Shown here one piece after another: positions 10,845 to 22,098 of a stretch of 32,000 bases of DNA (positions within the stretch are counted from its first letter, which is position 1; every line of letters starts with the position of its first letter). The DNA is from Halomicronema hongdechloris C2206. GTDB taxonomy: Bacteria; Cyanobacteriota; Cyanobacteriia; Phormidesmidales; Phormidesmidaceae. The notes under the pieces are model-generated. The model was not told the origin of the DNA. It saw nothing but the letters and a program-made list of their open reading frames with translations, and did not search any database. The position numbers were made by a program, and so were the translations under genes. The stretch spans positions 4,770,001 to 4,802,000 of the forward strand of contig NZ_CP021983.2 in the NCBI RefSeq assembly GCF_002075285.3, in the 5' to 3' direction.

Positions 10845-11903
<1,059 letters not shown>

Positions 11904-11996
11904 TTAATCCTTCTGGGTAAGGTGTACTCACTCCATATGTAAATGGGAATTGCCAATCTATCAGAGGATTTACCCTTTTCTTTCAAGGTTTAGTTA

Positions 11997-12632
11997 TCAA
12001 TCTGTGAAGTTCTCGGGAGACTGCCGGTGAATACAACGAAAGGTCAGATTGATGCGAGGAGCTACCGGCTTGGTGGTTTTTGGCACCCGGTGCTGCCAGT
12101 GATGTTGGGTGGCAGCCGCCATGATCAGCAGACTGCCGGAAGCCAGGGTGAGGTCGAGTTTCGCTAGCTGGGGTTTGCTCTTGTGGCGCAGTACAAATCG
12201 CCGCGATCCCCCTAGGCTGAGAGAGGCAATCACTGGGTTGGGGCCGAGTTCTGGCTCATCGTCGCTATGCCAGCCCATGCTGTCGCGACCATGACGATAG
12301 TAGTTGAGCAACACGCTGTTGAAGGGGACTCCGGCCACGGATTCCAGGGCGGCTTTCAGGCGGGCCAGCGTCGGCGTCCAGGGCTGGGGGGCCATGGCGA
12401 TGCCGGAGTAAGTGTAGGCGGCTCCTGGGTCTCCATACCAAGCGGTCAGTCGCGGCAGGGGATGGCGCTTACCGTAGAGGCTAATCCAATCCTGTCGCCA
12501 GGGGATGGTCTGCTGTAGATGCTCGAAGAGGCTGGGAGGATCAGATACCCACTGGGGATAGTAGAACAACTCTCCGTCGGGAAGCTGATGGCGTTGGCAG
12601 GGCTCGCTGTTGAGCATTAGGAGACTGGACAT
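11997..12632 (-). CDS. alkB: Alpha-ketoglutarate/Fe(II)-dependent dioxygenase, AlkB family
   Basis: NYYRHGRDSMGWHSDDEPELG (HxD), IASLSLGGSRRFVLRH, and the second His and Arg in QHHWQHRVPK...RINLTFR. Confidence 0.85.
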   Translation of the reverse strand: MSSLLMLNSEPCQRHQLPDGELFYYPQWVSDPPSLFEHLQQTIPWRQDWISLYGKRHPLPRLTAWYGDPGAAYTYSGIAMAPQPWTPTLARLKAALESVAGVPFNSVLLNYYRHGRDSMGWHSDDEPELGPNPVIASLSLGGSRRFVLRHKSKPQLAKLDLTLASGSLLIMAAATQHHWQHRVPKTTKPVAPRINLTFRCIHRQSPENFTD

Positions 12633-13228: not shown

Positions 13229-14578
13229 CTAGCGCGGCAGCAAGGGGGTGGCGTGGGCTTTGAAGTTGGCTTTTACCAGGGCATTCACAGTGGCCTCCGG
13301 ATCGTCGACACGGAATTGGGCGCCCAGGCGTACGAGTTGACGATTTTCATTTTGACCAATCATGGCTACCACTGGCACCCGGGCAAAGGCCGAGTCGGTA
13401 CCTTGGTGGCTGCGGATGACGTTGCGCAGGCGATGTTGTTGCTCGATATCGGCGGCCGTCCGGGGTTCCATCTCTACCATCACTAGGCGCACAGTCTCGA
13501 TGGGTTCGGCATCGTCGACGATGAGCTGCACCCGATCGTCACGGCGATCTACCTTGCCCCAGATCATCAGGCGGGCATCGGCAATGATGTGCTGGCCGAT
13601 GCGCTCGAAGGAGCGGGGGAAGACAACTCCTTCGACCTGACCGGAGAGGTCTTCTAGTTGCACGATGGCCATGCGATCGCCTTTCTTAGTTACGACGGGT
13701 TTGACACTGGCCAACATGGCGATGGCACTGATGGTGGTGTTATCGGGTTGGGCCTCCAGATCGGCCAGGTTAATCGGGGCTAGCATCCGGGCCGGACGTT
13801 GCACTGTCTTGAGGGGATGGTCGGAGACGTAAAAGCCCAGGAGTTCTTTTTCCTGGCGCAGTTTTTCCTGGGGGTCGAAGTCAGGTACTAGGGGAGCACT
13901 GGGAGCAGTCTCATAGCCCCCCGGCGCCGCAATGCCCTCGTCACTGCCACCGCTGAACATGTCGAACAGATTGCCCTGCCCTACTTCTCGATCCCGGGCT
14001 CGTCCTTGGGCCCACTCCACCACGAACGGTAGGTCTTGCATGAGCTGGTTGCGATTGGCATTGAAGACATCCAACGCTCCAGAGAGAATCAAGGCTTCTA
14101 GGGCGCGGCGGTTGACGGCATGGAGGGAGATGCGATCGCATAACTCTGCTAGAGATTGAAAGGGACCATTCTCGTCCCGCTCCTGCAGAATGCACTCGAT
14201 CGCCCCCAGTCCCACATTACGCACTGCCGAGAGGCCAAAGAGAATCTGCTGCCCTTCTGGGGTAAAGTCCACCCGCGATTTGTTGATATCCGGCGGCAAC
14301 ACCTCAATGCCCATGGCGACGCAGTTGGCGATGTGCATCTGCACCTTGTCCTGGTCACCGCTGTTGGCCGTCAACAGCGCCGCCATGTATTCCACCGGAT
14401 AGTTGGCCTTCAGATAGGCGGTTTGGAAGGTAACGAAACCGTAGGCGGTGGAGTGGGATTTGTTAAAGCAATTGGAGGCCACCTGACCATTGGCCAGCAA
14501 GAAGTTGTGGTCTGGTTCAACGCCAATGTCATAGACCGGCTGTATCCCCAATGATTTTCGACGAATAATTTTGACCAT
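13229..14578 (-). CDS. dnaE: DNA polymerase III alpha subunit, C-terminal half: IntC split-intein fragment plus C-extein
   Basis: MVKIIRRKSLGIQPVYDIGVEPDHNFLLANGQVASN|CFNKSHSTAYGFVTFQTAYLKANYP... The start is taken at ATG 14578 (GGAG upstream). The track ORF begins three codons earlier at TTG. Confidence 0.95.
   Translation of the reverse strand: MVKIIRRKSLGIQPVYDIGVEPDHNFLLANGQVASNCFNKSHSTAYGFVTFQTAYLKANYPVEYMAALLTANSGDQDKVQMHIANCVAMGIEVLPPDINKSRVDFTPEGQQILFGLSAVRNVGLGAIECILQERDENGPFQSLAELCDRISLHAVNRRALEALILSGALDVFNANRNQLMQDLPFVVEWAQGRARDREVGQGNLFDMFSGGSDEGIAAPGGYETAPSAPLVPDFDPQEKLRQEKELLGFYVSDHPLKTVQRPARMLAPINLADLEAQPDNTTISAIAMLASVKPVVTKKGDRMAIVQLEDLSGQVEGVVFPRSFERIGQHIIADARLMIWGKVDRRDDRVQLIVDDAEPIETVRLVMVEMEPRTAADIEQQHRLRNVIRSHQGTDSAFARVPVVAMIGQNENRQLVRLGAQFRVDDPEATVNALVKANFKAHATPLLPR
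14471..14578 (-). mobile_element. DnaE split intein, C-terminal fragment (IntC, 36 aa)
   Basis: Close match to known DnaE IntC sequences (Npu: MIKIATRKYLGKQNVYDIGVERDHNFALKNGFIASN). The terminal Asn is followed by Cys+1 of CFN. Confidence 0.95.
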
Positions 14579-14587
14579 TCTCTCCAA

Positions 14588-14655
14588 CTCCTAAATCCGA
14601 TTAACAATGCGTTAACTGTTAACGGTGAAACGCCTACATCCGCCAAGAATCTCAC
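14588..14655 (-). pseudogene. Truncated DUF5615 (PIN-like toxin) gene; only about 22 N-terminal codons remain
   Basis: A GTG start overlaps the DUF433 stop in GTGA. MRFLADVGVSPLTVNALLIGF resembles the DUF5615 N-terminus (M.FL.DE..SP.....L...G). The frame then runs out of register into the dnaE-c start and IntC coding sequence. Confidence 0.5.
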
Positions 14656-14897
14656 GCTGCGCTCTCCGTCAGGCTATGGACTTCCTCGCTAGCAAGGAAA
14701 GCGGCATATTCTAAGCACGCTGAAATATCCTCCACTTCAAGATAGGGATAAGCTTCTAGAACTTCTGTGGTTGACATGCCATTCGCTAATAAGCTCAATA
14801 CTAGAGACACAGAAATACGCATGCCACGAATGCAGGCCCTTCCCCCCATAATTTCTGGATCAAAAGTTATTCGTTCAAACATCTTGAATTTTTCCAC
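14652..14897 (-). CDS. DUF433 domain protein (antitoxin-like partner of DUF5615)
   Basis: ITFDPEIMGGRACIRGMRISVSLVLSLLANGMSTTEVLEAYPYLEVEDISACLEYAA matches the DUF433 consensus. The start is GTG 14897 or ATG 14882. Confidence 0.85.
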   Translation of the reverse strand: MEKFKMFERITFDPEIMGGRACIRGMRISVSLVLSLLANGMSTTEVLEAYPYLEVEDISACLEYAAFLASEEVHSLTESAA

Positions 14898-15002: not shown

Positions 15003-15680
15003 TCAAGCAGCCGTACTCAATGCCTCTAACTTCTCCGTGACTATTTGTTTCAAGATCTTCAAAATCGTTTCGGCCTCTAGCTTTTCGCTGTATTCCCGGG
15101 AGGGTTCCAGTTTCAGTGCTGGGCGATCGCTCTCCATTTCCATTACCTCAGCCCGCACAAATGTCCACACATCGGCAACGGTATAGCAGCCAAATGCCAC
15201 TTGTGGATCGCGCTGATCTAGTTCCCAGTTCATGCGAGCAGCAGCTAAAAGCTGACCATAGAGTTGGTATTGAGGGTTTTGGGCTCCGATGCCGCGTTTA
15301 GCTTCAACCACTACCAAATAGGGCGCTTCAATCTCACCCGACAGCCCTTTTCCCAACACCCCATCAACTAAACCGGAAAGCTCGAAAGTTTTATAGGTTC
15401 CCTTTAAGGCGACTTCCGTCCAAGCCTGAACAAAATCTCGCTCTGCCAATACCAAAATCGGATAGATAGCCCGTGCCCAAACGGTGGCTTCATTCACAAG
15501 CTGAGTGCGATAGTTGACCAGCCGCGCCTGCACATCTTGTACCTGCCGCCGCTCATTGTCGCCCAGCTCTATTCCATCTACGTTCTTCATCCAAGAATCA
15601 CTACTAATACCTTGTTCATCAATCCCGACAAGGGGTTTGAGGTCAGTCAGGGTGAGATTCGAAAATAGAAGCTGTTTCAT
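15003..15680 (-). CDS. PD-(D/E)xK nuclease-like protein (HsdR-N / restriction-endonuclease-like fold), 225 aa
   Basis: ATG 15680 with AGGAGA 7 nt upstream, 19 nt after the dnaE-n stop. The ordered motifs are E65 (NEATVW), D106 (GLVDGVL), E126-A-K128 (YLVVVEAKRG) and QYQLY. The track ORF starts nine codons earlier, inside the dnaE-n 3' end. Confidence 0.7.
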   Translation of the reverse strand: MKQLLFSNLTLTDLKPLVGIDEQGISSDSWMKNVDGIELGDNERRQVQDVQARLVNYRTQLVNEATVWARAIYPILVLAERDFVQAWTEVALKGTYKTFELSGLVDGVLGKGLSGEIEAPYLVVVEAKRGIGAQNPQYQLYGQLLAAARMNWELDQRDPQVAFGCYTVADVWTFVRAEVMEMESDRPALKLEPSREYSEKLEAETILKILKQIVTEKLEALSTAA

Positions 15681-15699
15681 AGCACGTCTCCTGAAAGAG

Positions 15700-18288
15700 T
15701 TATGCAATCGCAGGTGACGGCACGTCCACCTGCTTTAACTCTAGCCCCTGTTCAAAGATGTCGTTGATGGGCCGCATCTCCCCAGCGACAGTCATAAATT
15801 TGTGATCTGCCGTGGCTCGAATCGTAGTGCCATTGTCGAGCTGGTAGGCAAAAATTTCCTGATAGCCACGACGATGCCACTGGGCGATGGGCTGAGTATA
15901 GACAAAGCCATTGGCATCCACGCTGTAAACCTGGCATTCAATTTGCTGCTCAACGATTTTGCCGATCGCCAGCGGGCCGTACTCCACCGTCATCACCTCG
16001 GTGTCGTAGCTGAGGCAATACTCGGCAAACTTGACCATCTGATCCCAGAGTACCTCCACTGTCTTCTTGGGCACGCCATTATTGACTGCGCCCTCAATGA
16101 AGTGGCCCTTGTGCTTCTCCATCTCGGCCACTTTCTTCTTACCCATGGCCCGTCGCAGCAGATCCGCCTGCCCCAGGGAATAGCCCGCCATGTCCTGGGC
16201 AATTCTCATGATCTGCTCCTGGTAGACCATGATGCCGTAGGTCTCTTTTAAAATCGGCTGCAAAATCTCATGGGCATAGTCGATGGATTCCCGCCCGTGC
16301 TTGCGGTTGATGAACTTGGGAATCAACCCCGCATCCAAAGGTCCTGGGCGATACAGGGCCAAGACCGAGGAAATATCCTCCAGGCCCGAGGGCTTTAGGT
16401 CTCGCACGATCTGGCGCATGCCCGACGACTCCAGCTGGAAGATGCCCCCCAGATCCCCCTTCTCCAGTAACTTAAAGGCCTTGGGATCATCCATGGGCAA
16501 GTCATCGGGATCCACCTGTTGACCATGACTTTGCTCGATCAAGTCAACGGTCTTCTGAATCATGGTCAGGTTTTTTAGCCCCAGGAAGTCCATCTTCAGC
16601 AGGCCGATGGCCTCCACATCCTCCATGTAGTACTGGGTGATCACCTGACCGTCGTTGTTGCGCTGCAACGGCACAATCTCATCCAAGGGTTCCTTCGAAA
16701 TTACTACCCCGGCCGCATGTACCCCAAAGGTCTTATTGGTGCCCTCGATCCGCATGGCCATATCGATCCAGCGGTGCACCTGGGGATCACTGTCATACTT
16801 CTGCTTAAATTCTGGGGCCGGTGTCTCATCCGAGATCATCACCTTCAGCTTCGCCGGTTTGCCCCGAGCCACCGGAATCAGCTTGGCCATGCGGTCGGCC
16901 TCACCGTAGGGAATATCCAGCACCCGGGCCACGTCCTTCAGCACCGCCTTCGAGGTCATGCGGTTGAAGGTGATGATTTGGGCAACCCGCTCTTCTCCGT
17001 AACGCTCGGTGACATACTTGATTACCTCATCCCGGCGCTCGATGCAGAAGTCGGTGTCAATATCCGGCATGGACTTGCGCTCTGGGTTCAAGAAGCGCTC
17101 AAATAGCAGCCCGTGGTGCACCGGATCGATGTTGGTAATGCCCATGGCATAGGCCACCAGGGAGCCTGCCGCCGAGCCCCGGCCCGGCCCCACCGGAATC
17201 TTATTGTCTCGGGCAAAGCGAATATAGTCCCAGACCACCAAAAAGTAGGTAGGGAAGCCCATCTGGATCATCAGCTGGATCTCGTACTCCAGCCGCTCTC
17301 GATAGACTGGGTCCACCTCGCCATAGCGGGAGACCTTCATCCGCTTCACCAGGCCTTCCTTAGCCACGTGAGCCATATAGTCTTCTGCTCCCTCAAACCC
17401 CTCTGGAATTGGGAAGTCAGGAATGCGGGGCTGCCCCAGGATGTCGGTGTACTCCTCCACCTTGTCGGCCACCTCCAGGGTGGTATGAATGGCTTCGTCG
17501 ATCACCTCGTCGCTCAGGTGATCGCGAAACAACTGCCGCATCTCATCGGCGGATTTCAGGTACTCGGTGCCGCTATAGCGCAGCCGCTTATCTTCGGTCA
17601 GCAGCTTGCCCGTCTGGATGCAGAGGAGGGCGTCGTGGGCCTCCACATCGTTGCAAGAGATGTAATGGGAGTCGTTGGTGCAGATGATTTTAATGTCTAA
17701 TTCCCGGGCAATCTTGACCAGTTCCACATTGACGATGCGGTCTTCCGGGGAGCCATGGTCTTGGATTTCTAGGTAATAGTCGTCGCCGCAGCGGTCTTTA
17801 TACCATTGAGCCACCCGCCGGGCTACGTCGGGACGCTTCTGCAGAATCGCCTGGGGCACTTCGCCCCCCAAGCAGGCGCTGGTGACGATCAACCCTTCGT
17901 GGTATTGCTCTAGCAGCTCTTTGTTAATACAGGGGCGGGAGAAGATGCCCTTGCCTTGTACCCCTTGCAGATGGGATATGGTAGTCAGCTTCACTAGGTT
18001 CTTGTAACCCTGGGTATTTTTAGCCAGCACCACCTGGTGATAGCGGGGCCGCCGCTGCTGCTGAGTGATGTCGCCATTGATGATGTACATCTCGTTGCCG
18101 ATGATCGGCTTGATGCCTTTGCCTTTGCACAGCTTCAGGATCTCAATGGCCCCGTACATGACTCCGTGATCGGTGAGGGCAATGGCTGGCATGCCAAGCT
18201 CTACGGCCCGGTCAACCAATTGGGGCAGTTGGCTGGCCCCGTCGAGCAGGCTGTAGTTGCTGTGAATGTGCAGGCCGACAAAGGACAT
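15700..18288 (-). CDS. dnaE: DNA polymerase III alpha subunit, N-terminal half: N-extein (PHP and polymerase core) plus IntN split-intein fragment
   Basis: [19 protein letters not shown] (PHP)...PDIDTDF...[13 protein letters not shown]...KFAEY|[16 protein letters not shown]...stop. Confidence 0.97.
15703..16017 (-). mobile_element. DnaE split intein, N-terminal fragment (IntN, 105 aa)
   Basis: [105 protein letters not shown]. Cys1 and block B TxxH are present. It closely resembles the Npu and Ssp DnaE IntN sequences. Confidence 0.95.
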
Positions 18289-19098: not shown

Positions 19099-22098
19099 TC
19101 AAGTCAGAGCAGCTACCGGATGGTCTGCCAGCACCTTAGCCAGGTATTGCCCAGTGTAGGAGTGGGGCTGCTGGGCCAGCTCTTCTGGAGTACCGACGGC
19201 GATGACTTCACCGCCATGCTCACCGCCCTCCGGTCCCAGGTCGATGACCCAGTCGGCACAGCGAATCACATCCAGGTTGTGCTCGATCATCAGCACCGAG
19301 TTGCCCTTATTCACCAGGCGCTGCACCACATCCAACAGCTTGTGCACATCGTAAAAAGACAGGCCGGTGGTGGGTTCGTCGATCAAATAAAGGGTCTTGC
19401 CGGTGGCGCGGCGGGCCAGTTCCGAGGCCAGCTTCATCCGCTGCGCCTCGCCTCCAGAGAGGGTGGGGGCCGTCTGCCCCAGGCGAATATAGCCCAGGCC
19501 CACATCCACCATGGTCTGTAGTCGGCTGGCCGCCTTGGGAATATTCTGGAAAAAGTCCAGGGCTTCTTCTGCCGTCATGTTGAGTACATCGGCAATGGTG
19601 CGGTCCTTATATGTCACCTGCAGGGTCTCCCGGTTATAGCGGGCCCCTTTGCAGACTTCGCACTGCACGTAGACATCCGGCAGGAAGTTCATCTCGATCA
19701 CATTCACGCCCTGGCCGCTGCAGGCTTCGCAGCGTCCCCCCTTGACGTTGAACGAAAACTGCCCCGCCTTGTAGCCGCGGGCCTTAGCCTCGATGGTTTC
19801 GGTGAAGAGGTTGCGGATGACGTCGAACACTCCAGTGTAGGTGGCCGGATTAGAGCGGGGTGTGCGGCCAATGGGGGATTGGTCGATGACGATGACTTTA
19901 TCCAGGGCCTTGAGTCCCGAGAGCTTGTCTAGATCTTTCGGAAAGGGGACTTTGCTGCCGAAGTGGTGCTGCAGGGCCGGGTAGAGCAAGTTGTTCACCA
20001 GGGTAGACTTGCCGGAGCCCGAGACCCCAGTCACACAGACGAACTGCCCCAACGGAATCTCCACGTCGATATGCTTCAGGTTGTTGCGACGGGCCCCGTG
20101 GAGTTTCAGGCTGCGGCGATTGCCGGGCCGCCGCTGGGCTGGGGTGGGAATCACCAAGCGCCGGGCCAGATAGGCCCCAGTCACAGAATCTGCAGCCTGA
20201 GTCAGGTCGTCGATATGGCCTTGGACCACGATGTGGCCGCCGTGGATACCAGCACCGGGACCAATATCCACTAGGTGGTCGGCAGCCCGAATGGTGTCTT
20301 CATCGTGCTCCACCACGATCAGGGTATTGCCCAGATCCCGCAGCCGGGTCAGGGTGCGCAACAGGCGGTCATTGTCACGCTGGTGCAAGCCGATGCTGGG
20401 CTCGTCTAGGACATAGAGGACGCCGGTGAGGCCGGAGCCAATCTGGGTGGCTAGGCGAATACGCTGGGCCTCGCCGCCGGAGAGGGACATGGCGGTGCGG
20501 TGTAGGGTCAGATAGTCGAGGCCTACGTCGATGAGGAATTGTAGCCGGGCCTTGATTTCCTTTAGCACTAGTTCACCGATCTGGCGTTGGCGCCAGGATA
20601 GTAGCGGCGTTCCCTCATCACCGGCCAGGGTCTTGATCCGCTCCAGGCATTTGCGAATGGAGACGTTGGTCAGATCGAGCACATTGTAAGGGCCCATGCG
20701 TACGGCCAGGGATTCGGGCTTGAGCCGGGCTCCCTGACACACGTCACAGGGCTGATCGATCAAGTATTTTTCCAGCTTTTGCTTGTAGAGTTCGGAGCTG
20801 GCATCGCGATACTGGCGCTCTAAGATGGGCAGCACCCCTTCATAGCGCCGTTCATAGCCTTTGCGATCCCGATAGCGGGAGTCGGTTTCGATGTAGATCT
20901 TCTCGTCGCAGCCGTAGAGTACGATCTGCTGCTGCTCCTGGGTCAGCTGTTCCCAGGGGGTTTGAATCTGGAAGCCAAAGGCCTGGCCAACGCTGTAGAG
21001 CAGCGAGAAATAATAGGTGTTGTCCTTTTCCGACCAGGGGGCAATAGCGGCGTAGACCGGCAGTTTGGGATCGGGCACCACTAGATCGGCGGCGAAGGTG
21101 GGTAAGTTGCCCAAGCCATGGCAATGGGGACAGGCGCCGTAGGGGGAGTTGAAGGAGAACAGCCGTGGCGACAGCTCTTCCATGACGGCCCCGTGTTCCG
21201 GGCAAGCGAAGTTCTCCGAGAAGACCAACTCCGGCGGTAGGCCATAGGATGCTTCCCCTTCTGCCGCCTGGGGCAGTGAGTCAGACAGAGATTGAGATCG
21301 CAGCGGCACCACCTTAGACTCGCCAGACTGCCCCGCTTGAGCCCGATTGCGGTCTGGCAAAACGTCGATGACGGCAATGCCACTGGAGCGCTTCAGGCAG
21401 GTGGCCAGGGAGTCAGCCAGCCGCTCTTGCAGCCCTGGCTTTTTCACCAGTCGGTCTACCACTACTTCGATGGTGTGGGCCTGGTTTTTGTCCAGCTCGA
21501 TGGCATCGGTGAGGTCACGGATGTCGCCGTTGACCCGGACTCGCACAAATCCCTCCGAGGCCAGAGCGGACAGCAGCTTCTTGTGGGTGCCCTTCTTGCC
21601 CCGCACCACCGGGGCCAACAGCTGAAACCGGGTGCCGTCTGGCAATTCCAGCACCCGGTCGATCATCTGGTCGATGGTCTGGGGGGCGATGCTGCGATCG
21701 CATCGGGGACAGTGGGGCTCCCCGGCTCGGCCAAACAGCAACCGCAAATAGTCATAGATCTCCGTCACCGTACCCACCGTAGAGCGGGGGTTATGGGAGG
21801 TGGACTTCTGGTCGATGGAAATGGCCGGGCTCAGCCCCTCGATGGCATCGACATCGGGCTTGTCCACCTGGCCCAAAAACTGGCGGGCATAGGCACTGAG
21901 GGACTCCACATAGCGTCGCTGCCCCTCGGCAAAAATCGTATCGAAGGCTAGGGACGACTTGCCGGAGCCTGATACCCCCGTAAACACAATCAGCTGATTC
22001 CGGGGCAGATCCAGGTCAATATCTTTGAGATTGTGTTGTCGCGCCCCCCGTACCCGGATCACATTATCATCATCAGGAGAGGCGGGCCGACCCAGCAC
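19099..22098 (-). CDS. uvrA: Excinuclease ABC subunit A (UvrA)
   Basis: Two ABC ATPase modules (GVSGSGKSSL, GVSGSGKSTL), zinc-finger Cys pairs (CPRCDR, CPHCHGLG, CDVCQGAR, CEACSGQG...CEVCKGARY) and LSGGEAQR twice. Confidence 0.97.
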   Translation of the reverse strand: MLGRPASPDDDNVIRVRGARQHNLKDIDLDLPRNQLIVFTGVSGSGKSSLAFDTIFAEGQRRYVESLSAYARQFLGQVDKPDVDAIEGLSPAISIDQKSTSHNPRSTVGTVTEIYDYLRLLFGRAGEPHCPRCDRSIAPQTIDQMIDRVLELPDGTRFQLLAPVVRGKKGTHKKLLSALASEGFVRVRVNGDIRDLTDAIELDKNQAHTIEVVVDRLVKKPGLQERLADSLATCLKRSSGIAVIDVLPDRNRAQAGQSGESKVVPLRSQSLSDSLPQAAEGEASYGLPPELVFSENFACPEHGAVMEELSPRLFSFNSPYGACPHCHGLGNLPTFAADLVVPDPKLPVYAAIAPWSEKDNTYYFSLLYSVGQAFGFQIQTPWEQLTQEQQQIVLYGCDEKIYIETDSRYRDRKGYERRYEGVLPILERQYRDASSELYKQKLEKYLIDQPCDVCQGARLKPESLAVRMGPYNVLDLTNVSIRKCLERIKTLAGDEGTPLLSWRQRQIGELVLKEIKARLQFLIDVGLDYLTLHRTAMSLSGGEAQRIRLATQIGSGLTGVLYVLDEPSIGLHQRDNDRLLRTLTRLRDLGNTLIVVEHDEDTIRAADHLVDIGPGAGIHGGHIVVQGHIDDLTQAADSVTGAYLARRLVIPTPAQRRPGNRRSLKLHGARRNNLKHIDVEIPLGQFVCVTGVSGSGKSTLVNNLLYPALQHHFGSKVPFPKDLDKLSGLKALDKVIVIDQSPIGRTPRSNPATYTGVFDVIRNLFTETIEAKARGYKAGQFSFNVKGGRCEACSGQGVNVIEMNFLPDVYVQCEVCKGARYNRETLQVTYKDRTIADVLNMTAEEALDFFQNIPKAASRLQTMVDVGLGYIRLGQTAPTLSGGEAQRMKLASELARRATGKTLYLIDEPTTGLSFYDVHKLLDVVQRLVNKGNSVLMIEHNLDVIRCADWVIDLGPEGGEHGGEVIAVGTPEELAQQPHSYTGQYLAKVLADHPVAALT

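What the first reader, a model, noticed from the sequence alone, without database searches (positions are those of the whole stretch)
15003..15680. PD-(D/E)xK nuclease-like gene sits exactly where an intein homing-endonuclease domain would be
Seen in the sequence: a 225-aa ORF starts at ATG 15680, with AGGAGA 7 nt upstream, only 19 nt after the IntN stop codon. It carries the ordered motif set E65 (NEATVWARAIYPIL), D106 (GLVDGVL), E126-x-K128 (YLVVVEAKRG) and QxxxY (QYQLYGQLL). This is a restriction-endonuclease-like PD-(D/E)xK core, followed by a helical tail. Established knowledge: the PD-(D/E)xK fold includes genuine homing endonucleases. Examples are I-Ssp6803I from a cyanobacterial group I intron, and the Vsr-like EDxHD enzymes such as I-Bth0305I that lie between split-intein halves in fractured genes. 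Inference: this could be a free-standing homing endonuclease serving the split DnaE intein, targeting intein-less dnaE at the AEY/CFN junction. It could also be an unrelated selfish passenger. I recall similar small PD-(D/E)xK proteins being multi-copy in cyanobacterial genomes, which favours the passenger alternative and needs testing.
Basis: partly seen in the sequence, partly recalled or inferred. Interest (0 to 1): 0.75.

Follow-up and report, generated by a model that had tools for sequence, protein, structure and literature searches.

The report
Nuclease gene between split-intein halves
A conserved gene for a predicted DNA-cutting enzyme sits between the two adjacent halves of a cyanobacterial DNA-polymerase gene broken by a split intein, exactly where other cyanobacteria carry a classical homing-endonuclease gene; this makes it a candidate new kind of homing nuclease and shows the split dnaE gene in its predicted "fractured" form.

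Summary
Window 15003-15680 (minus strand) encodes a 225-aa protein (Halomicronema hongdechloris XM38_045480). It starts 19 nt after the DnaE IntN stop codon. Its predicted fold is PD-(D/E)xK, and E64, D106, E126, K128 and Q139 are invariant in all 90 homologues examined.

In this genome dnaE-n and dnaE-c are adjacent, about 1.1 kb apart on the same strand. The ORF therefore lies in the slot between IntN and IntC. A well-supported clade of orthologues occupies that slot in at least 10 related cyanobacteria and is under purifying selection.

In other cyanobacteria the same slot holds a free-standing LAGLIDADG endonuclease, Uma2 or PDDEXK_4 nuclease genes, small cassettes, or nothing.

Between close relatives the ORF differs sharply while its flanks stay similar, or is swapped for another cassette. 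It has therefore moved among dnaE loci.

Most of the wider family (cyanobacteria, giant sulfur bacteria, Chloroflexi) is not intein-linked, is multi-copy, and in one genome forms a ten-copy tandem array.

My best reading is a slot-specialised lineage of a selfish nuclease family acting as a homing-type endonuclease of a fractured dnaE gene. This is unproven. The main rival is a passive passenger. A target in intein-less dnaE is unlikely.

The parts
16018..18288 (-). dnaE-n, N-extein of DNA polymerase III alpha (PHP, DNA_pol3_alpha and finger domains), ending ...KFAEY
   Evidence: ORF 15700..18288. Pfam PHP, DNA_pol3_alpha and DNA_pol3_finger at E 1e-99 to 5e-50.
15700..16017 (-). IntN, the N-terminal half of the split DnaE intein (CLSYDTEV...SPAIA, 105 aa), plus the TAA stop at 15702-15700
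   Evidence: Translation. Weak Pfam Intein_splicing hit. 64-85% identical to IntN in related loci. Cys1 and the T-x-x-H block (TADH) can be read directly in the sequence.
15687..15692 (-). AGGAGA ribosome-binding site of ORF225, 6 nt before the ATG
   Evidence: Sequence.
15003..15680 (-). ORF225 (XM38_045480): stand-alone predicted PD-(D/E)xK nuclease with catalytic candidates E64, D106, E126, K128 and Q139
14652..14897 (-). DUF433 gene (81 aa), an antitoxin-like passenger in the slot
   Evidence: Pfam PF04255 at E=1e-25.
14596..14655 (-). Remnant of a gene overlapping the DUF433 stop codon (GTG; V/MRFLADVGVSPLTVNALL...). After about 20 codons it runs out of frame into the IntC ribosome-binding site. 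It is probably a truncated DUF5615-type toxin partner; that resemblance is recalled from memory and has no profile hit.
   Evidence: Sequence. No Pfam or NCBIfam hit for the 81-aa ORF 14410..14655.
14471..14578 (-). IntC, the C-terminal half of the split DnaE intein ([36 protein letters not shown], 36 aa). The ATG is at 14578 and AGGAG at 14592-14588.
   Evidence: 67-86% identical to IntC in related loci.
13229..14470 (-). dnaE-c, C-extein of DNA polymerase III alpha (CFNKSH...; HHH_6 and OB-fold domains)
   Evidence: Pfam HHH_6 at E=1.6e-31 and tRNA_anti-codon at E=1.1e-10.

Best explanation
The dnaE gene of this cyanobacterium is a 'fractured gene'. dnaE-n with IntN, and IntC with dnaE-c, lie next to each other on one strand and are probably transcribed together. 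The two polymerase halves are made separately and joined by protein trans-splicing; that step is established for cyanobacterial DnaE split inteins.

ORF225 occupies the slot between the intein halves. It is a free-standing PD-(D/E)xK nuclease translated from its own ribosome-binding site, 19 nt after the IntN stop codon. It belongs to a slot-specialised lineage of a small, unnamed family of selfish stand-alone nuclease genes.

The mechanism I think most likely, which is inferred and not shown, is this. The enzyme makes a double-strand break in dnaE alleles whose IntN/IntC slot lacks it, whether the slot is empty or holds another cassette. Repair from an ORF225-bearing allele, using the conserved intein and extein flanks as homology arms, then copies the gene into the slot. 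This is homing of a free-standing endonuclease gene. In this lineage it would have replaced the LAGLIDADG endonuclease gene that still fills the same slot in other cyanobacteria.

Shown here: the gene, its fold and motifs, its position, its conservation, and its lateral exchange. Inferred: nuclease activity, site specificity and homing.
For: (1) Nuclease. The model is confident (pLDDT 91.9). Fold matches are to Cas4, MGME1, RecB-type and restriction-endonuclease-like proteins. The PADLOC PD_DExK profile matches at E=6e-8. E64/D106/E126/K128/Q139 are invariant in 90 of 90 copies.

(2) Slot association. All ten loci with at least 60% identity have the ORF downstream of dnaE-n/IntN and/or upstream of IntC-dnaE-c, usually 14-33 nt after the IntN stop, and overlapping it by 4 nt in L011. 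In Sphaerothrix the layout is IntN, 22 nt, ORF, 18 nt, IntC. These copies form one clade with 92.5% bootstrap support.

(3) The slot is an endonuclease slot. A LAGLIDADG_3 ORF of about 259 aa starts 2 nt after the IntN stop and overlaps the IntC start in many cyanobacteria, including the complete genome of Trichothermofontia sichuanensis and Chroococcidiopsis FACHB-1243. Uma2 and PDDEXK_4 nuclease genes fill it in others, and empty slots of 12-35 nt also exist.

(4) Mobility within the slot. In L011 versus L016 the DnaE-n extein is 95% identical but ORF225 only 60%. DNA identity is 85-90% through dnaE-n and IntN, falls to 34-72% over the ORF, then returns to 70-83%. In L012 versus L158 the flanks are 86-91% identical, but ORF225 and a DUF2513 gene are alternatives between the same boundaries.

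(5) Maintained function. dN/dS is 0.05-0.15, like the exteins.

(6) Further links to dnaE. Copies outside the core clade also sit next to dnaE halves (L024, L070, L053), and a distant homologue lies 27 nt after IntN in L122.

(7) Expression. No promoter-like or terminator-like site lies on the coding strand between dnaE-n and dnaE-c.

(8) Precedent. The arrangement matches the fractured-gene model of Dassa et al. 2009 (PMC2677866).
Against: - No cleavage activity or target site is known.
- Most of the family is not intein-linked. 65 of 78 genome loci have no dnaE nearby, and neighbours span 214 Pfam families with no intein family among the 25 most frequent, which were the only ones listed.
- Copies are multi-copy, and one genome has a ten-gene tandem array (L028). 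That is not typical of homing endonuclease genes.
- The closest folds (Cas4, RecB, MGME1) are mostly end-processing or structure-specific nucleases, not sequence-specific ones.
- The slot also collects toxin-antitoxin modules, DUF2513 cassettes and even a histidine-kinase gene. It may simply tolerate insertions.
- One ancestral insertion followed by vertical descent and losses explains most of the ORF-in-slot pattern. The host DnaE tree places ORF225-bearing loci in one clade plus its sister L024.
- The mosaic pattern could arise from ordinary homologous recombination.
- No relatives were found on viral contigs, and only one partial hit on a plasmid.
Confidence: 0.5

Rival explanations
1. Passive passenger. 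ORF225 is a selfish or cellular PD-(D/E)xK nuclease, for example with a defence, repair or addiction-type role. Its function has nothing to do with the intein. One copy landed in the dispensable spacer of an already fractured dnaE operon in an ancestor of the Halomicronema/Nodosilinea/Leptolyngbyaceae group. It has since been inherited with dnaE, riding on transcription of an essential operon. Swaps between relatives are ordinary homologous recombination.
For: The family is scattered at unrelated loci in cyanobacteria, Thiotrichaceae, Chloroflexi, Desulfobacterales and Poribacteria. It is multi-copy and occurs in tandem arrays. The slot also holds toxin-antitoxin genes, DUF2513 cassettes, Uma2 and other genes. 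ORF225-bearing hosts form one clade in the DnaE tree. ORF225 and Uma2 also alternate in a second, non-intein slot between a hydrolase gene and dnaE-n (L053 versus L167). A PADLOC profile of CRISPR-associated PD-DExK proteins matches, and a distant homologue lies next to a RAMP-like gene, recognised only by reading its translation, in L134.
Against: The dnaE-linked copies form their own clade (92.5% bootstrap), and exchanges stay within that clade. Donors were therefore other dnaE slots, not random paralogues. At least three further family lineages sit beside dnaE halves, far more than the roughly 0.05 expected from random placement of about 60 copies among about 5000 genes. That figure is my own estimate. 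Nuclease genes are greatly over-represented in this one spacer (LAGLIDADG, Uma2, ORF225, PDDEXK_4, EcoO109I). The start of the ORF is tightly coupled to the IntN stop codon in most species.
Confidence: 0.33
2. ORF225 is the homing endonuclease of the split DnaE intein and cuts intein-less dnaE at the AEY|CFN coding junction. This would drive the whole IntN-ORF-IntC unit into uninterrupted dnaE genes.
For: The position matches fractured genes in which a free-standing endonuclease lies between intein halves (PMC2677866). PD-(D/E)xK homing endonucleases exist, for example I-Ssp6803I (listed in PMC3424549).
Against: All 80 metagenomic and 13 genomic cyanobacterial dnaE loci recovered here already carry the intein halves, although the metagenome scan was seeded with IntN and could not have found intein-less genes. 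The variation observed is in the slot content, not in intein presence. The family is not generally intein-associated. The LAGLIDADG gene is the more likely original intein endonuclease.
Confidence: 0.07
3. Domesticated helper. ORF225 has been co-opted by the host and works with the dnaE operon. It might act as a nuclease at the replisome or as a factor needed for expression or trans-splicing of the two DnaE halves.
For: Operon position, translational coupling to dnaE-n and strong purifying selection.
Against: Close relatives with nearly identical dnaE lack the ORF (L158, L114, L102-L104, L106) or have empty slots. Most cyanobacteria with split dnaE lack it. Most family members are nowhere near dnaE.
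Confidence: 0.05

Closest known systems
Fractured genes: split-intein gene halves flanking a free-standing endonuclease gene (Dassa et al. 2009, NAR, PMC2677866)
   Same: Two adjacent, co-oriented gene halves. The first ends with IntN and the second starts with IntC. A free-standing nuclease ORF lies between them, in a DNA-replication gene. That paper's model places this arrangement as the stage before the halves become unlinked, as in cyanobacterial dnaE.
   Different: The published cases were metagenomic, largely phage-like loci. Their dnaE insertion points differ from the cyanobacterial one, and their endonucleases were GIY-YIG or Vsr-like. The paper states that the cyanobacterial dnaE halves lie at separate loci. 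Here the intein is the canonical cyanobacterial DnaE intein site (AEY|CFN), in cellular genomes, and the nuclease is an unnamed PD-(D/E)xK family.
Free-standing LAGLIDADG_3 endonuclease gene in the same IntN/IntC slot of other cyanobacteria
   Same: Same slot, same orientation, and tight coupling to the IntN stop and IntC start.
   Different: An unrelated fold and catalytic mechanism. The LAGLIDADG gene is the usual intein endonuclease type and is probably the original occupant. ORF225 is a PD-(D/E)xK protein whose relatives are mostly outside inteins.
Cas4 / RecB / MGME1-type PD-(D/E)xK nucleases
   Same: Core fold and ordered motifs: E on helix 1, D just after strand 2, ExK at the end of strand 3, and Q...Y on the next helix.
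   Different: No detectable sequence relationship in Pfam, NCBIfam or PDB sequence searches. There is only one conserved Cys, so no four-cysteine Fe-S cluster as in Cas4. There are no helicase or cas partners. The protein is stand-alone, about 220 aa, with a variable N-terminal region of about 60 residues.
I-Ssp6803I (PF11645), the PD-(D/E)xK homing endonuclease of a cyanobacterial group I intron
   Same: The same superfamily, a cyanobacterial host, and an association with a self-splicing element.
   Different: No Pfam hit to PF11645. No PDB sequence hit. It is not among the 50 structural matches listed. I-Ssp6803I is intron-encoded, whereas ORF225 is free-standing between intein halves.
Uma2 (DUF820, PF05685) putative endonucleases, multi-copy in cyanobacteria
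   Same: Small stand-alone PD-(D/E)xK genes that are multi-copy, shared between cyanobacteria and other phyla, and found in the very same dnaE slots.
   Different: There is no profile-profile similarity (hhalign probability 0.3%) and no Pfam Uma2 hit. The ORF225 family is much smaller, with 321 representatives among 1.84 billion.
Collaborative homing of a free-standing endonuclease with an endonuclease-less self-splicing element (F-CphI next to the cyanophage psbA intron; recalled from memory, not checked here)
   Same: A free-standing nuclease gene adjacent to a self-splicing element that lacks its own endonuclease would mobilise both.
   Different: That case involves a group I intron in phage and has demonstrated cleavage. 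Here the element is a split intein in cellular genomes and no activity data exist.

Membership tests
PD-(D/E)xK nuclease superfamily | alpha-beta-beta-beta-alpha-beta core fold | tested here: met
   AlphaFold2 pLDDT 91.9, with elements H64-78, E84-95, E99-105, E116-127, H136-155 and E160-168. Foldseek matches to Cas4, MGME1, AdnAB/DinG nuclease domains, SduA and mitoribosomal restriction-endonuclease-like proteins.
PD-(D/E)xK nuclease superfamily | Conserved acidic residue just after strand 2 and (D/E)xK at the end of strand 3 | tested here: met
   D106, E126 and K128 are invariant in 90 of 90 copies. PADLOC PD_DExK profile at E=6e-8.
PD-(D/E)xK nuclease superfamily | Metal-dependent phosphodiesterase activity | not testable with these tools
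   Needs purified protein.
Fractured gene (Dassa et al. 2009) | Two halves of one gene adjacent and co-oriented, the first ending in IntN and the second starting with IntC | tested here: met
   dnaE-n/IntN at 15700..18288 and IntC/dnaE-c at 13229..14578, both on the minus strand. The same arrangement occurs in the 7 of the ten core loci that contain both halves, in L024, in L166/L167 and in 23 metagenome loci.
Fractured gene (Dassa et al. 2009) | Free-standing endonuclease ORF between the intein halves | tested here: met
   ORF225 is a predicted nuclease with its own ribosome-binding site and start codon. The nuclease family differs from the published GIY-YIG and Vsr-like ones.
Homing endonuclease (functional class) | Site-specific cleavage of the allele that lacks the element | not testable with these tools
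   No biochemical data. Candidate target alleles (empty or differently occupied slots) were identified.
Homing endonuclease (functional class) | Evidence of lateral movement into a fixed genomic site, independent of the host gene | tested here: inconclusive
   L011/L016 discordance (95% versus 60% identity) with mosaic DNA identity. ORF225/DUF2513 swap between identical flanks. Both are compatible with homing and with ordinary recombination.
Homing endonuclease (functional class) | Family-wide association with self-splicing elements or conserved target genes | tested here: not met
   65 of 78 genome loci have no dnaE or intein nearby, and no intein family is among the listed neighbour families.
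I-Ssp6803I family (PF11645) | Sequence or profile match to PF11645 / PDB 2OST | tested here: not met
   No Pfam hit at E<=1. No PDB sequence hit with the single sequence or the profile. Absent from the 50 Foldseek matches listed.
Vsr-like EDxHD endonucleases (I-Bth0305I, DUF559) | EDxHD motif and Vsr/DUF559 profile match | tested here: not met
   No Pfam hit. The motifs are E...D...ExK instead.
Uma2 (PF05685) | Profile match to Uma2 | tested here: not met
   No Pfam hit. hhalign against Uma2 sequences from the same slots gives probability 0.3%.
Cas4 (PF01930) | Four-cysteine Fe-S cluster and cas-operon context | tested here: not met
   Only one conserved Cys (C165). No cas neighbours of the close family. 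No Pfam hit.

The most novel reading that the evidence does not exclude
ORF225 founds a new family of homing endonucleases, with a RecB/Cas4-like PD-(D/E)xK core, that displaced the ancestral LAGLIDADG endonuclease from the DnaE intein slot and still moves among dnaE loci. Together with the LAGLIDADG-occupied and empty slots found here, it would show that the canonical cyanobacterial split DnaE intein arose through a 'fractured gene' stage that survives in many living cyanobacteria. The well-known distant dnaE-n/dnaE-c arrangement would then be a derived state reached several times.
Probability: 0.35. Interest if true: 0.85.

Novelty: new variant of a known kind. Interest (0 to 1): 0.7.

Why it matters
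The cyanobacterial DnaE split intein is the textbook natural split intein and the source of the Npu and Ssp tools used throughout protein engineering. How it arose has been explained only by a model: the intein is fractured around its endonuclease, then the halves become unlinked (PMC2677866). In the literature I could search, the halves are described as lying at separate loci.

This window and its relatives show the halves still adjacent, with a nuclease gene in the endonuclease slot. The slot has interchangeable occupants: LAGLIDADG, ORF225, Uma2, PDDEXK_4 or nothing. This turns the origin question into a comparative and experimental one.

If ORF225 cuts ORF225-less slots, it would add a new structural class of homing endonuclease with a compact 225-aa scaffold. 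It would also be a natural example of endonuclease turnover inside an intein. If it does not, the locus is still a clear case of an essential operon's spacer acting as a sink for selfish nuclease genes.

Tried and rejected
- Profile searches for ORF225 found nothing in Pfam, NCBIfam or PHROGs. PDB sequence searches with the single sequence and the family profile found nothing meaningful. The family is unnamed.
- Mobile-element carriers. No relatives on IMG/VR viral contigs and only one partial (28%) plasmid hit. I dropped the phage-borne and plasmid-borne ideas.
- Conserved partner gene or other split inteins next to non-dnaE copies. Neighbour clustering and an aggregate Pfam scan of 121 neighbours gave heterogeneous housekeeping genes and no intein family among those listed. 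Only the 25 most frequent families are shown, so a single hit could be hidden.
- Terminal repeats or a common flanking motif, as for an IS or MITE. Short-word BLAST of 200-nt flanks showed only orthologous flanks and tandem-array neighbours.
- Kinship with Uma2 was rejected.
- Fusion proteins in the profile search (P0128, P0138, P0141) were checked for IntN fusions. None was found. P0128 is a Clp_N-like fusion with a degenerate motif.
- Paralogue count in the H. hongdechloris genome could not be done. The genome did not appear among the returned genome-contig loci, and only one H. hongdechloris protein was among the 120 listed hits.
- Caspi et al. 2003 (PMC7168405) could not be opened.
- dS is saturated for most species pairs, so dN/dS rests on the less diverged pairs.
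- The trees are neighbour-joining only, and the backbone of the family tree is unresolved. A single ancient dnaE-linked lineage cannot be separated from repeated insertion for L024 and L070.
Full report
**1. The observation**

On the minus strand the window encodes, in order:
- dnaE-n ending in IntN (15700..18288; extein ...KFAEY, then CLSYDTEV...);
- a 19-nt spacer containing AGGAGA;
- a 225-aa ORF (15680..15003);
- a DUF433 gene (14897..14652; Pfam E=1e-25);
- a remnant of about 20 codons of another gene that overlaps the DUF433 stop codon;
- IntC fused to dnaE-c (ATG at 14578; ...[12 protein letters not shown]...; stop at 13229).

The ORF is identical to Halomicronema hongdechloris C2206 XM38_045480. 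The helix motif conserved across the family is Q139-L-Y141 rather than QxxxY.

The two dnaE halves are adjacent, about 1.1 kb apart and co-oriented. No promoter-like or terminator-like site lies on the coding strand between them.

**2. What the protein is**

Pfam, NCBIfam, PHROGs and PDB sequence searches find nothing. An AlphaFold2 model built from 41 homologues is confident (pLDDT 91.9, pTM 0.90). It shows a PD-(D/E)xK core with E64 on the first core helix, D106 just after strand 99-105 and E126-x-K128 at the end of strand 116-127. A helix carrying Q139/Y141 follows, and there is a long C-terminal helix.

Foldseek finds restriction-endonuclease-like mitoribosomal proteins, MGME1, Cas4, AdnAB/DinG nuclease domains and SduA in the PDB. 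It finds Cas4/RecB-type nucleases among viral models. The PADLOC profile 'PD_DExK' matches residues 71-194 at E=6e-8.

All 90 family copies I extracted keep E64, D106, E126, K128 and Q139. The first 60 or so residues and the last 15 are the variable parts. The fold assignment is well supported. Activity is inferred.

**3. The family**

There are 564 homologues at E<=1e-3 in the 90%-clustered collection, and the 120 best listed are 52-82% identical apart from the window's own protein. Only 321 representatives appear among 1.84 billion 50%-clusters. The family is compact and highly conserved, and it has no name.

Members occur in filamentous cyanobacteria, large sulfur bacteria (Thiotrichaceae, Thiomargarita, Thioploca, Beggiatoa relatives), Caldilineaceae/Anaerolineales, Desulfobacterales and Poribacteria. 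Many genomes carry several copies. One Thiotrichaceae contig has ten in tandem (L028).

Outside the dnaE-linked copies the neighbours are heterogeneous. They span 214 Pfam families among 121 neighbours, and the most frequent are ABC transporters, Uma2, DegT and response regulators. No intein family is among the 25 most frequent families, the only ones listed, and there is no constant partner. I found no common flanking repeats, no viral contigs and one partial plasmid hit.

**4. The association with split dnaE**

Of 78 loci from species-representative genomes, 13 have the ORF beside a dnaE half. All ten loci with at least 60% identity have it downstream of IntN and/or upstream of IntC-dnaE-c. 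These ten are Cyanobacteria bacterium P01_A01_bin.123, Sphaerothrix gracilis, Leptolyngbyaceae RM1_1_2, Nodosilinea LEGE 06152 and P-1105, Oscillatoria CS-180, Leptolyngbya RL_3_1 and three further MAGs. The ORF is usually 14-33 nt after the IntN stop codon and overlaps it by 4 nt in L011. In Sphaerothrix the layout is IntN, 22 nt, ORF, 18 nt, IntC.

These copies form one clade with 92.5% neighbour-joining bootstrap support. Where dS is not saturated, they evolve at dN/dS 0.05-0.15, like the DnaE exteins.

Three further copies outside that clade are also dnaE-linked:
- L024 is in the slot, together with two Uma2 genes and an EcoO109I-type restriction endonuclease.
- L070 is directly upstream of IntC-dnaE-c.
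- L053 is directly upstream of dnaE-n.

The closest relatives of each (L073, L018, and L026/L045) are not dnaE-linked. A distant homologue (hhalign probability 88.6%) lies 27 nt after IntN in metagenome locus L122.

**5. The slot in other cyanobacteria**

I scanned metagenome contigs with an IntN profile and obtained 80 loci. IntN is followed by IntC-dnaE-c within 12 nt to 2.1 kb in 23 loci. About 27 loci with at least 3 kb of downstream sequence show the classical separated state.

The slot contents are as follows:
- A free-standing LAGLIDADG_3 ORF of about 259 aa. It starts 2 nt after the IntN stop codon, overlaps the IntC start, and the three genes are in three different frames (L088, L093, L140, L148; also after IntN in L120).
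- One or two Uma2 genes (L110, L155/L159, L161).
- A PDDEXK_4 gene (L106).
- A three-gene cassette of small ORFs that includes DUF2513 (L087, L097, L102-L104, L158).
- Toxin-antitoxin genes and others (L114, L129).
- Nothing, with spacers of 12-35 nt (L139, L153, L156).
- An ORF225 orthologue directly after IntN in L086 and L095, although their contigs end before any IntC.

The LAGLIDADG protein has 198 homologues (the 120 listed are 55-98% identical) in Microcoleus, Chroococcidiopsis, Gloeocapsopsis, Chamaesiphon, Aerosakkonema, Ancylothrix and Trichothermofontia. In the complete genome of Trichothermofontia sichuanensis B231 and in Chroococcidiopsis FACHB-1243 it lies between dnaE-n and dnaE-c.

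In a neighbour-joining tree of DnaE-n exteins, adjacency is scattered over deep branches. ORF225-in-slot is confined to one host clade plus its sister L024. From this I infer three things, none of which is proven:
- Adjacency, the fractured-gene state, is ancestral.
- The LAGLIDADG gene is the original intein endonuclease.
- ORF225 entered the slot once in an ancestor of the Halomicronema/Nodosilinea group.

**6. Evidence that ORF225 moves within the slot**

L011 and L016 have DnaE-n exteins that are 95% identical, yet their ORF225 proteins are only 60% identical. That is as far apart as any two members of the clade. DNA identity in 100-nt windows runs at 77-92% (mostly 83-92%) through dnaE-n and IntN. 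It drops to 34-72% over the ORF and returns to 70-83% in the next gene.

L012 and L158 share 86-91% identical DNA up to a small upstream gene and again from the IntC start codon onward. Between those points one carries ORF225 and the other a DUF2513 gene.

Several close relatives of ORF225-bearing hosts lack the ORF altogether (L102-L104, L106, L114, L158). The ORF therefore has a history separate from that of its host gene. Because the exchanged alleles remain inside the dnaE-linked clade, the donors were other dnaE slots.

**7. Interpretation**

The literature I could search describes fractured genes with GIY-YIG or Vsr-like endonucleases at other insertion points. It states that the cyanobacterial dnaE halves are at separate loci, and it predicts a fractured stage before unlinking (PMC2677866). 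I found no paper reporting adjacent cyanobacterial dnaE halves or a nuclease gene between them. That library is incomplete.

My best explanation (confidence about 0.5) is that ORF225 is a slot-specialised lineage of a selfish PD-(D/E)xK nuclease family. It would behave as a free-standing homing-type endonuclease of the fractured dnaE locus. It would cut slots that lack it and be copied in by repair, using the conserved intein and extein flanks.

The main rival (about 0.33) is a passive passenger in a permissive operon spacer. This is supported by the non-intein distribution of most of the family, the tandem array, and the miscellany of other genes in the slot. ORF225 and Uma2 also alternate in a second slot upstream of dnaE-n (L053 versus L167).

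The polymorphism seen in these genomes is in slot content, not in intein presence. A domesticated replisome or splicing helper is unlikely (about 0.05), because near-identical dnaE operons do without the ORF.

**8. Verdict**

The finding is a new variant of a known kind: a fractured gene at the canonical cyanobacterial DnaE intein site, carrying a previously unnamed PD-(D/E)xK nuclease family in the endonuclease slot.

Interest is high for intein and homing-endonuclease specialists. The finding supplies living examples of the predicted intermediate in the origin of the best-known split intein. It also supplies a concrete, cheaply testable candidate for a new class of homing endonuclease.

Noticed in passing
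window 14596-14897 (minus strand): A DUF433 gene is followed by a remnant of only about 20 codons (V/MRFLADVGVSPLTVNALL...) that overlaps its stop codon and then runs out of frame into the IntC ribosome-binding site. It looks like a toxin-antitoxin pair whose toxin (DUF5615-like, from memory) was deleted, leaving an orphan antitoxin inside the dnaE slot.
   Followed up: partly
L088 5326-6105, L093 5326-6105, L140 3279-4061, L148 445-1230; L166 4001-4759; L167 4001-4780: A free-standing LAGLIDADG_3 endonuclease gene of about 259 aa lies exactly between IntN and IntC of the canonical DnaE split intein. The three genes are in three different frames. The protein has 198 homologues in named cyanobacteria (Microcoleus, Chroococcidiopsis, Chamaesiphon, Trichothermofontia and others). 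I found no paper describing this arrangement.
   Followed up: yes
L139 5318-5331, L153 5321-5357, L156 588-623, L113 5342-5494: 'Empty' fractured dnaE loci have the IntN stop and IntC start only 12-151 nt apart. In L139 the two halves are in the same frame, separated by one stop codon and 12 nt, so it is nearly a contiguous mini-intein.
   Followed up: partly
L028 5254-12650 (Thiotrichaceae bacterium S06.Bin195): Ten tandem, same-strand paralogues of the ORF225 family. They are 48-54% identical to the window protein and all keep intact catalytic residues. The same genome has at least seven further loci. This is unexplained and unusual for homing endonuclease genes.
   Followed up: partly
L053 4896-9383 versus L167 1-3999: The slot between an alpha/beta-hydrolase gene and dnaE-n holds an ORF225-family gene in Spirulina SIO3F2 and a Uma2 gene in Chroococcidiopsis FACHB-1243. 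The two unrelated nuclease families therefore alternate in two different slots around dnaE.
   Followed up: partly
L015 3320-3517; L151 5508-5588 and 5651-5731; L131 2132-2248: Partial duplicated copies of the 3' part of IntN lie downstream of the intact IntN. They suggest past recombination or repair events in the slot.
   Followed up: no
L116, L126, L128, L136, L152, L160 (insert of about 1.3 kb at DnaE residue ~375); L105, L109 (intein-like segment at residue ~716): Some cyanobacterial dnaE-n genes carry additional insertions that interrupt the extein alignment. These are probably further inteins at other sites.
   Followed up: no
L024 2753-5786: In one Synechococcales MAG the dnaE slot has grown to about 4 kb. 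It holds two Uma2 genes, an EcoO109I-type restriction endonuclease gene and the ORF225 homologue.
   Followed up: partly
L134 6129-7461 (minus strand): A distant ORF225-like PD-(D/E)xK gene sits next to a gene with a RAMP-like GGGRSRGLG motif, about 0.8 kb downstream of dnaE-n. This fits the PADLOC 'CRISPR-associated PD_DExK' profile hit.
   Followed up: no
window 10845-12632 and 19099-22098 (minus strand): The flanking genes look like ordinary housekeeping genes, judged only from their translations: a GAPDH-like ORF (10845-11897), a 211-aa ORF resembling AlkB-type 2OG-Fe(II) oxygenases (11997-12632) and a UvrA-like 999-aa ORF (19099-22098). They were not profile-checked.
   Followed up: no
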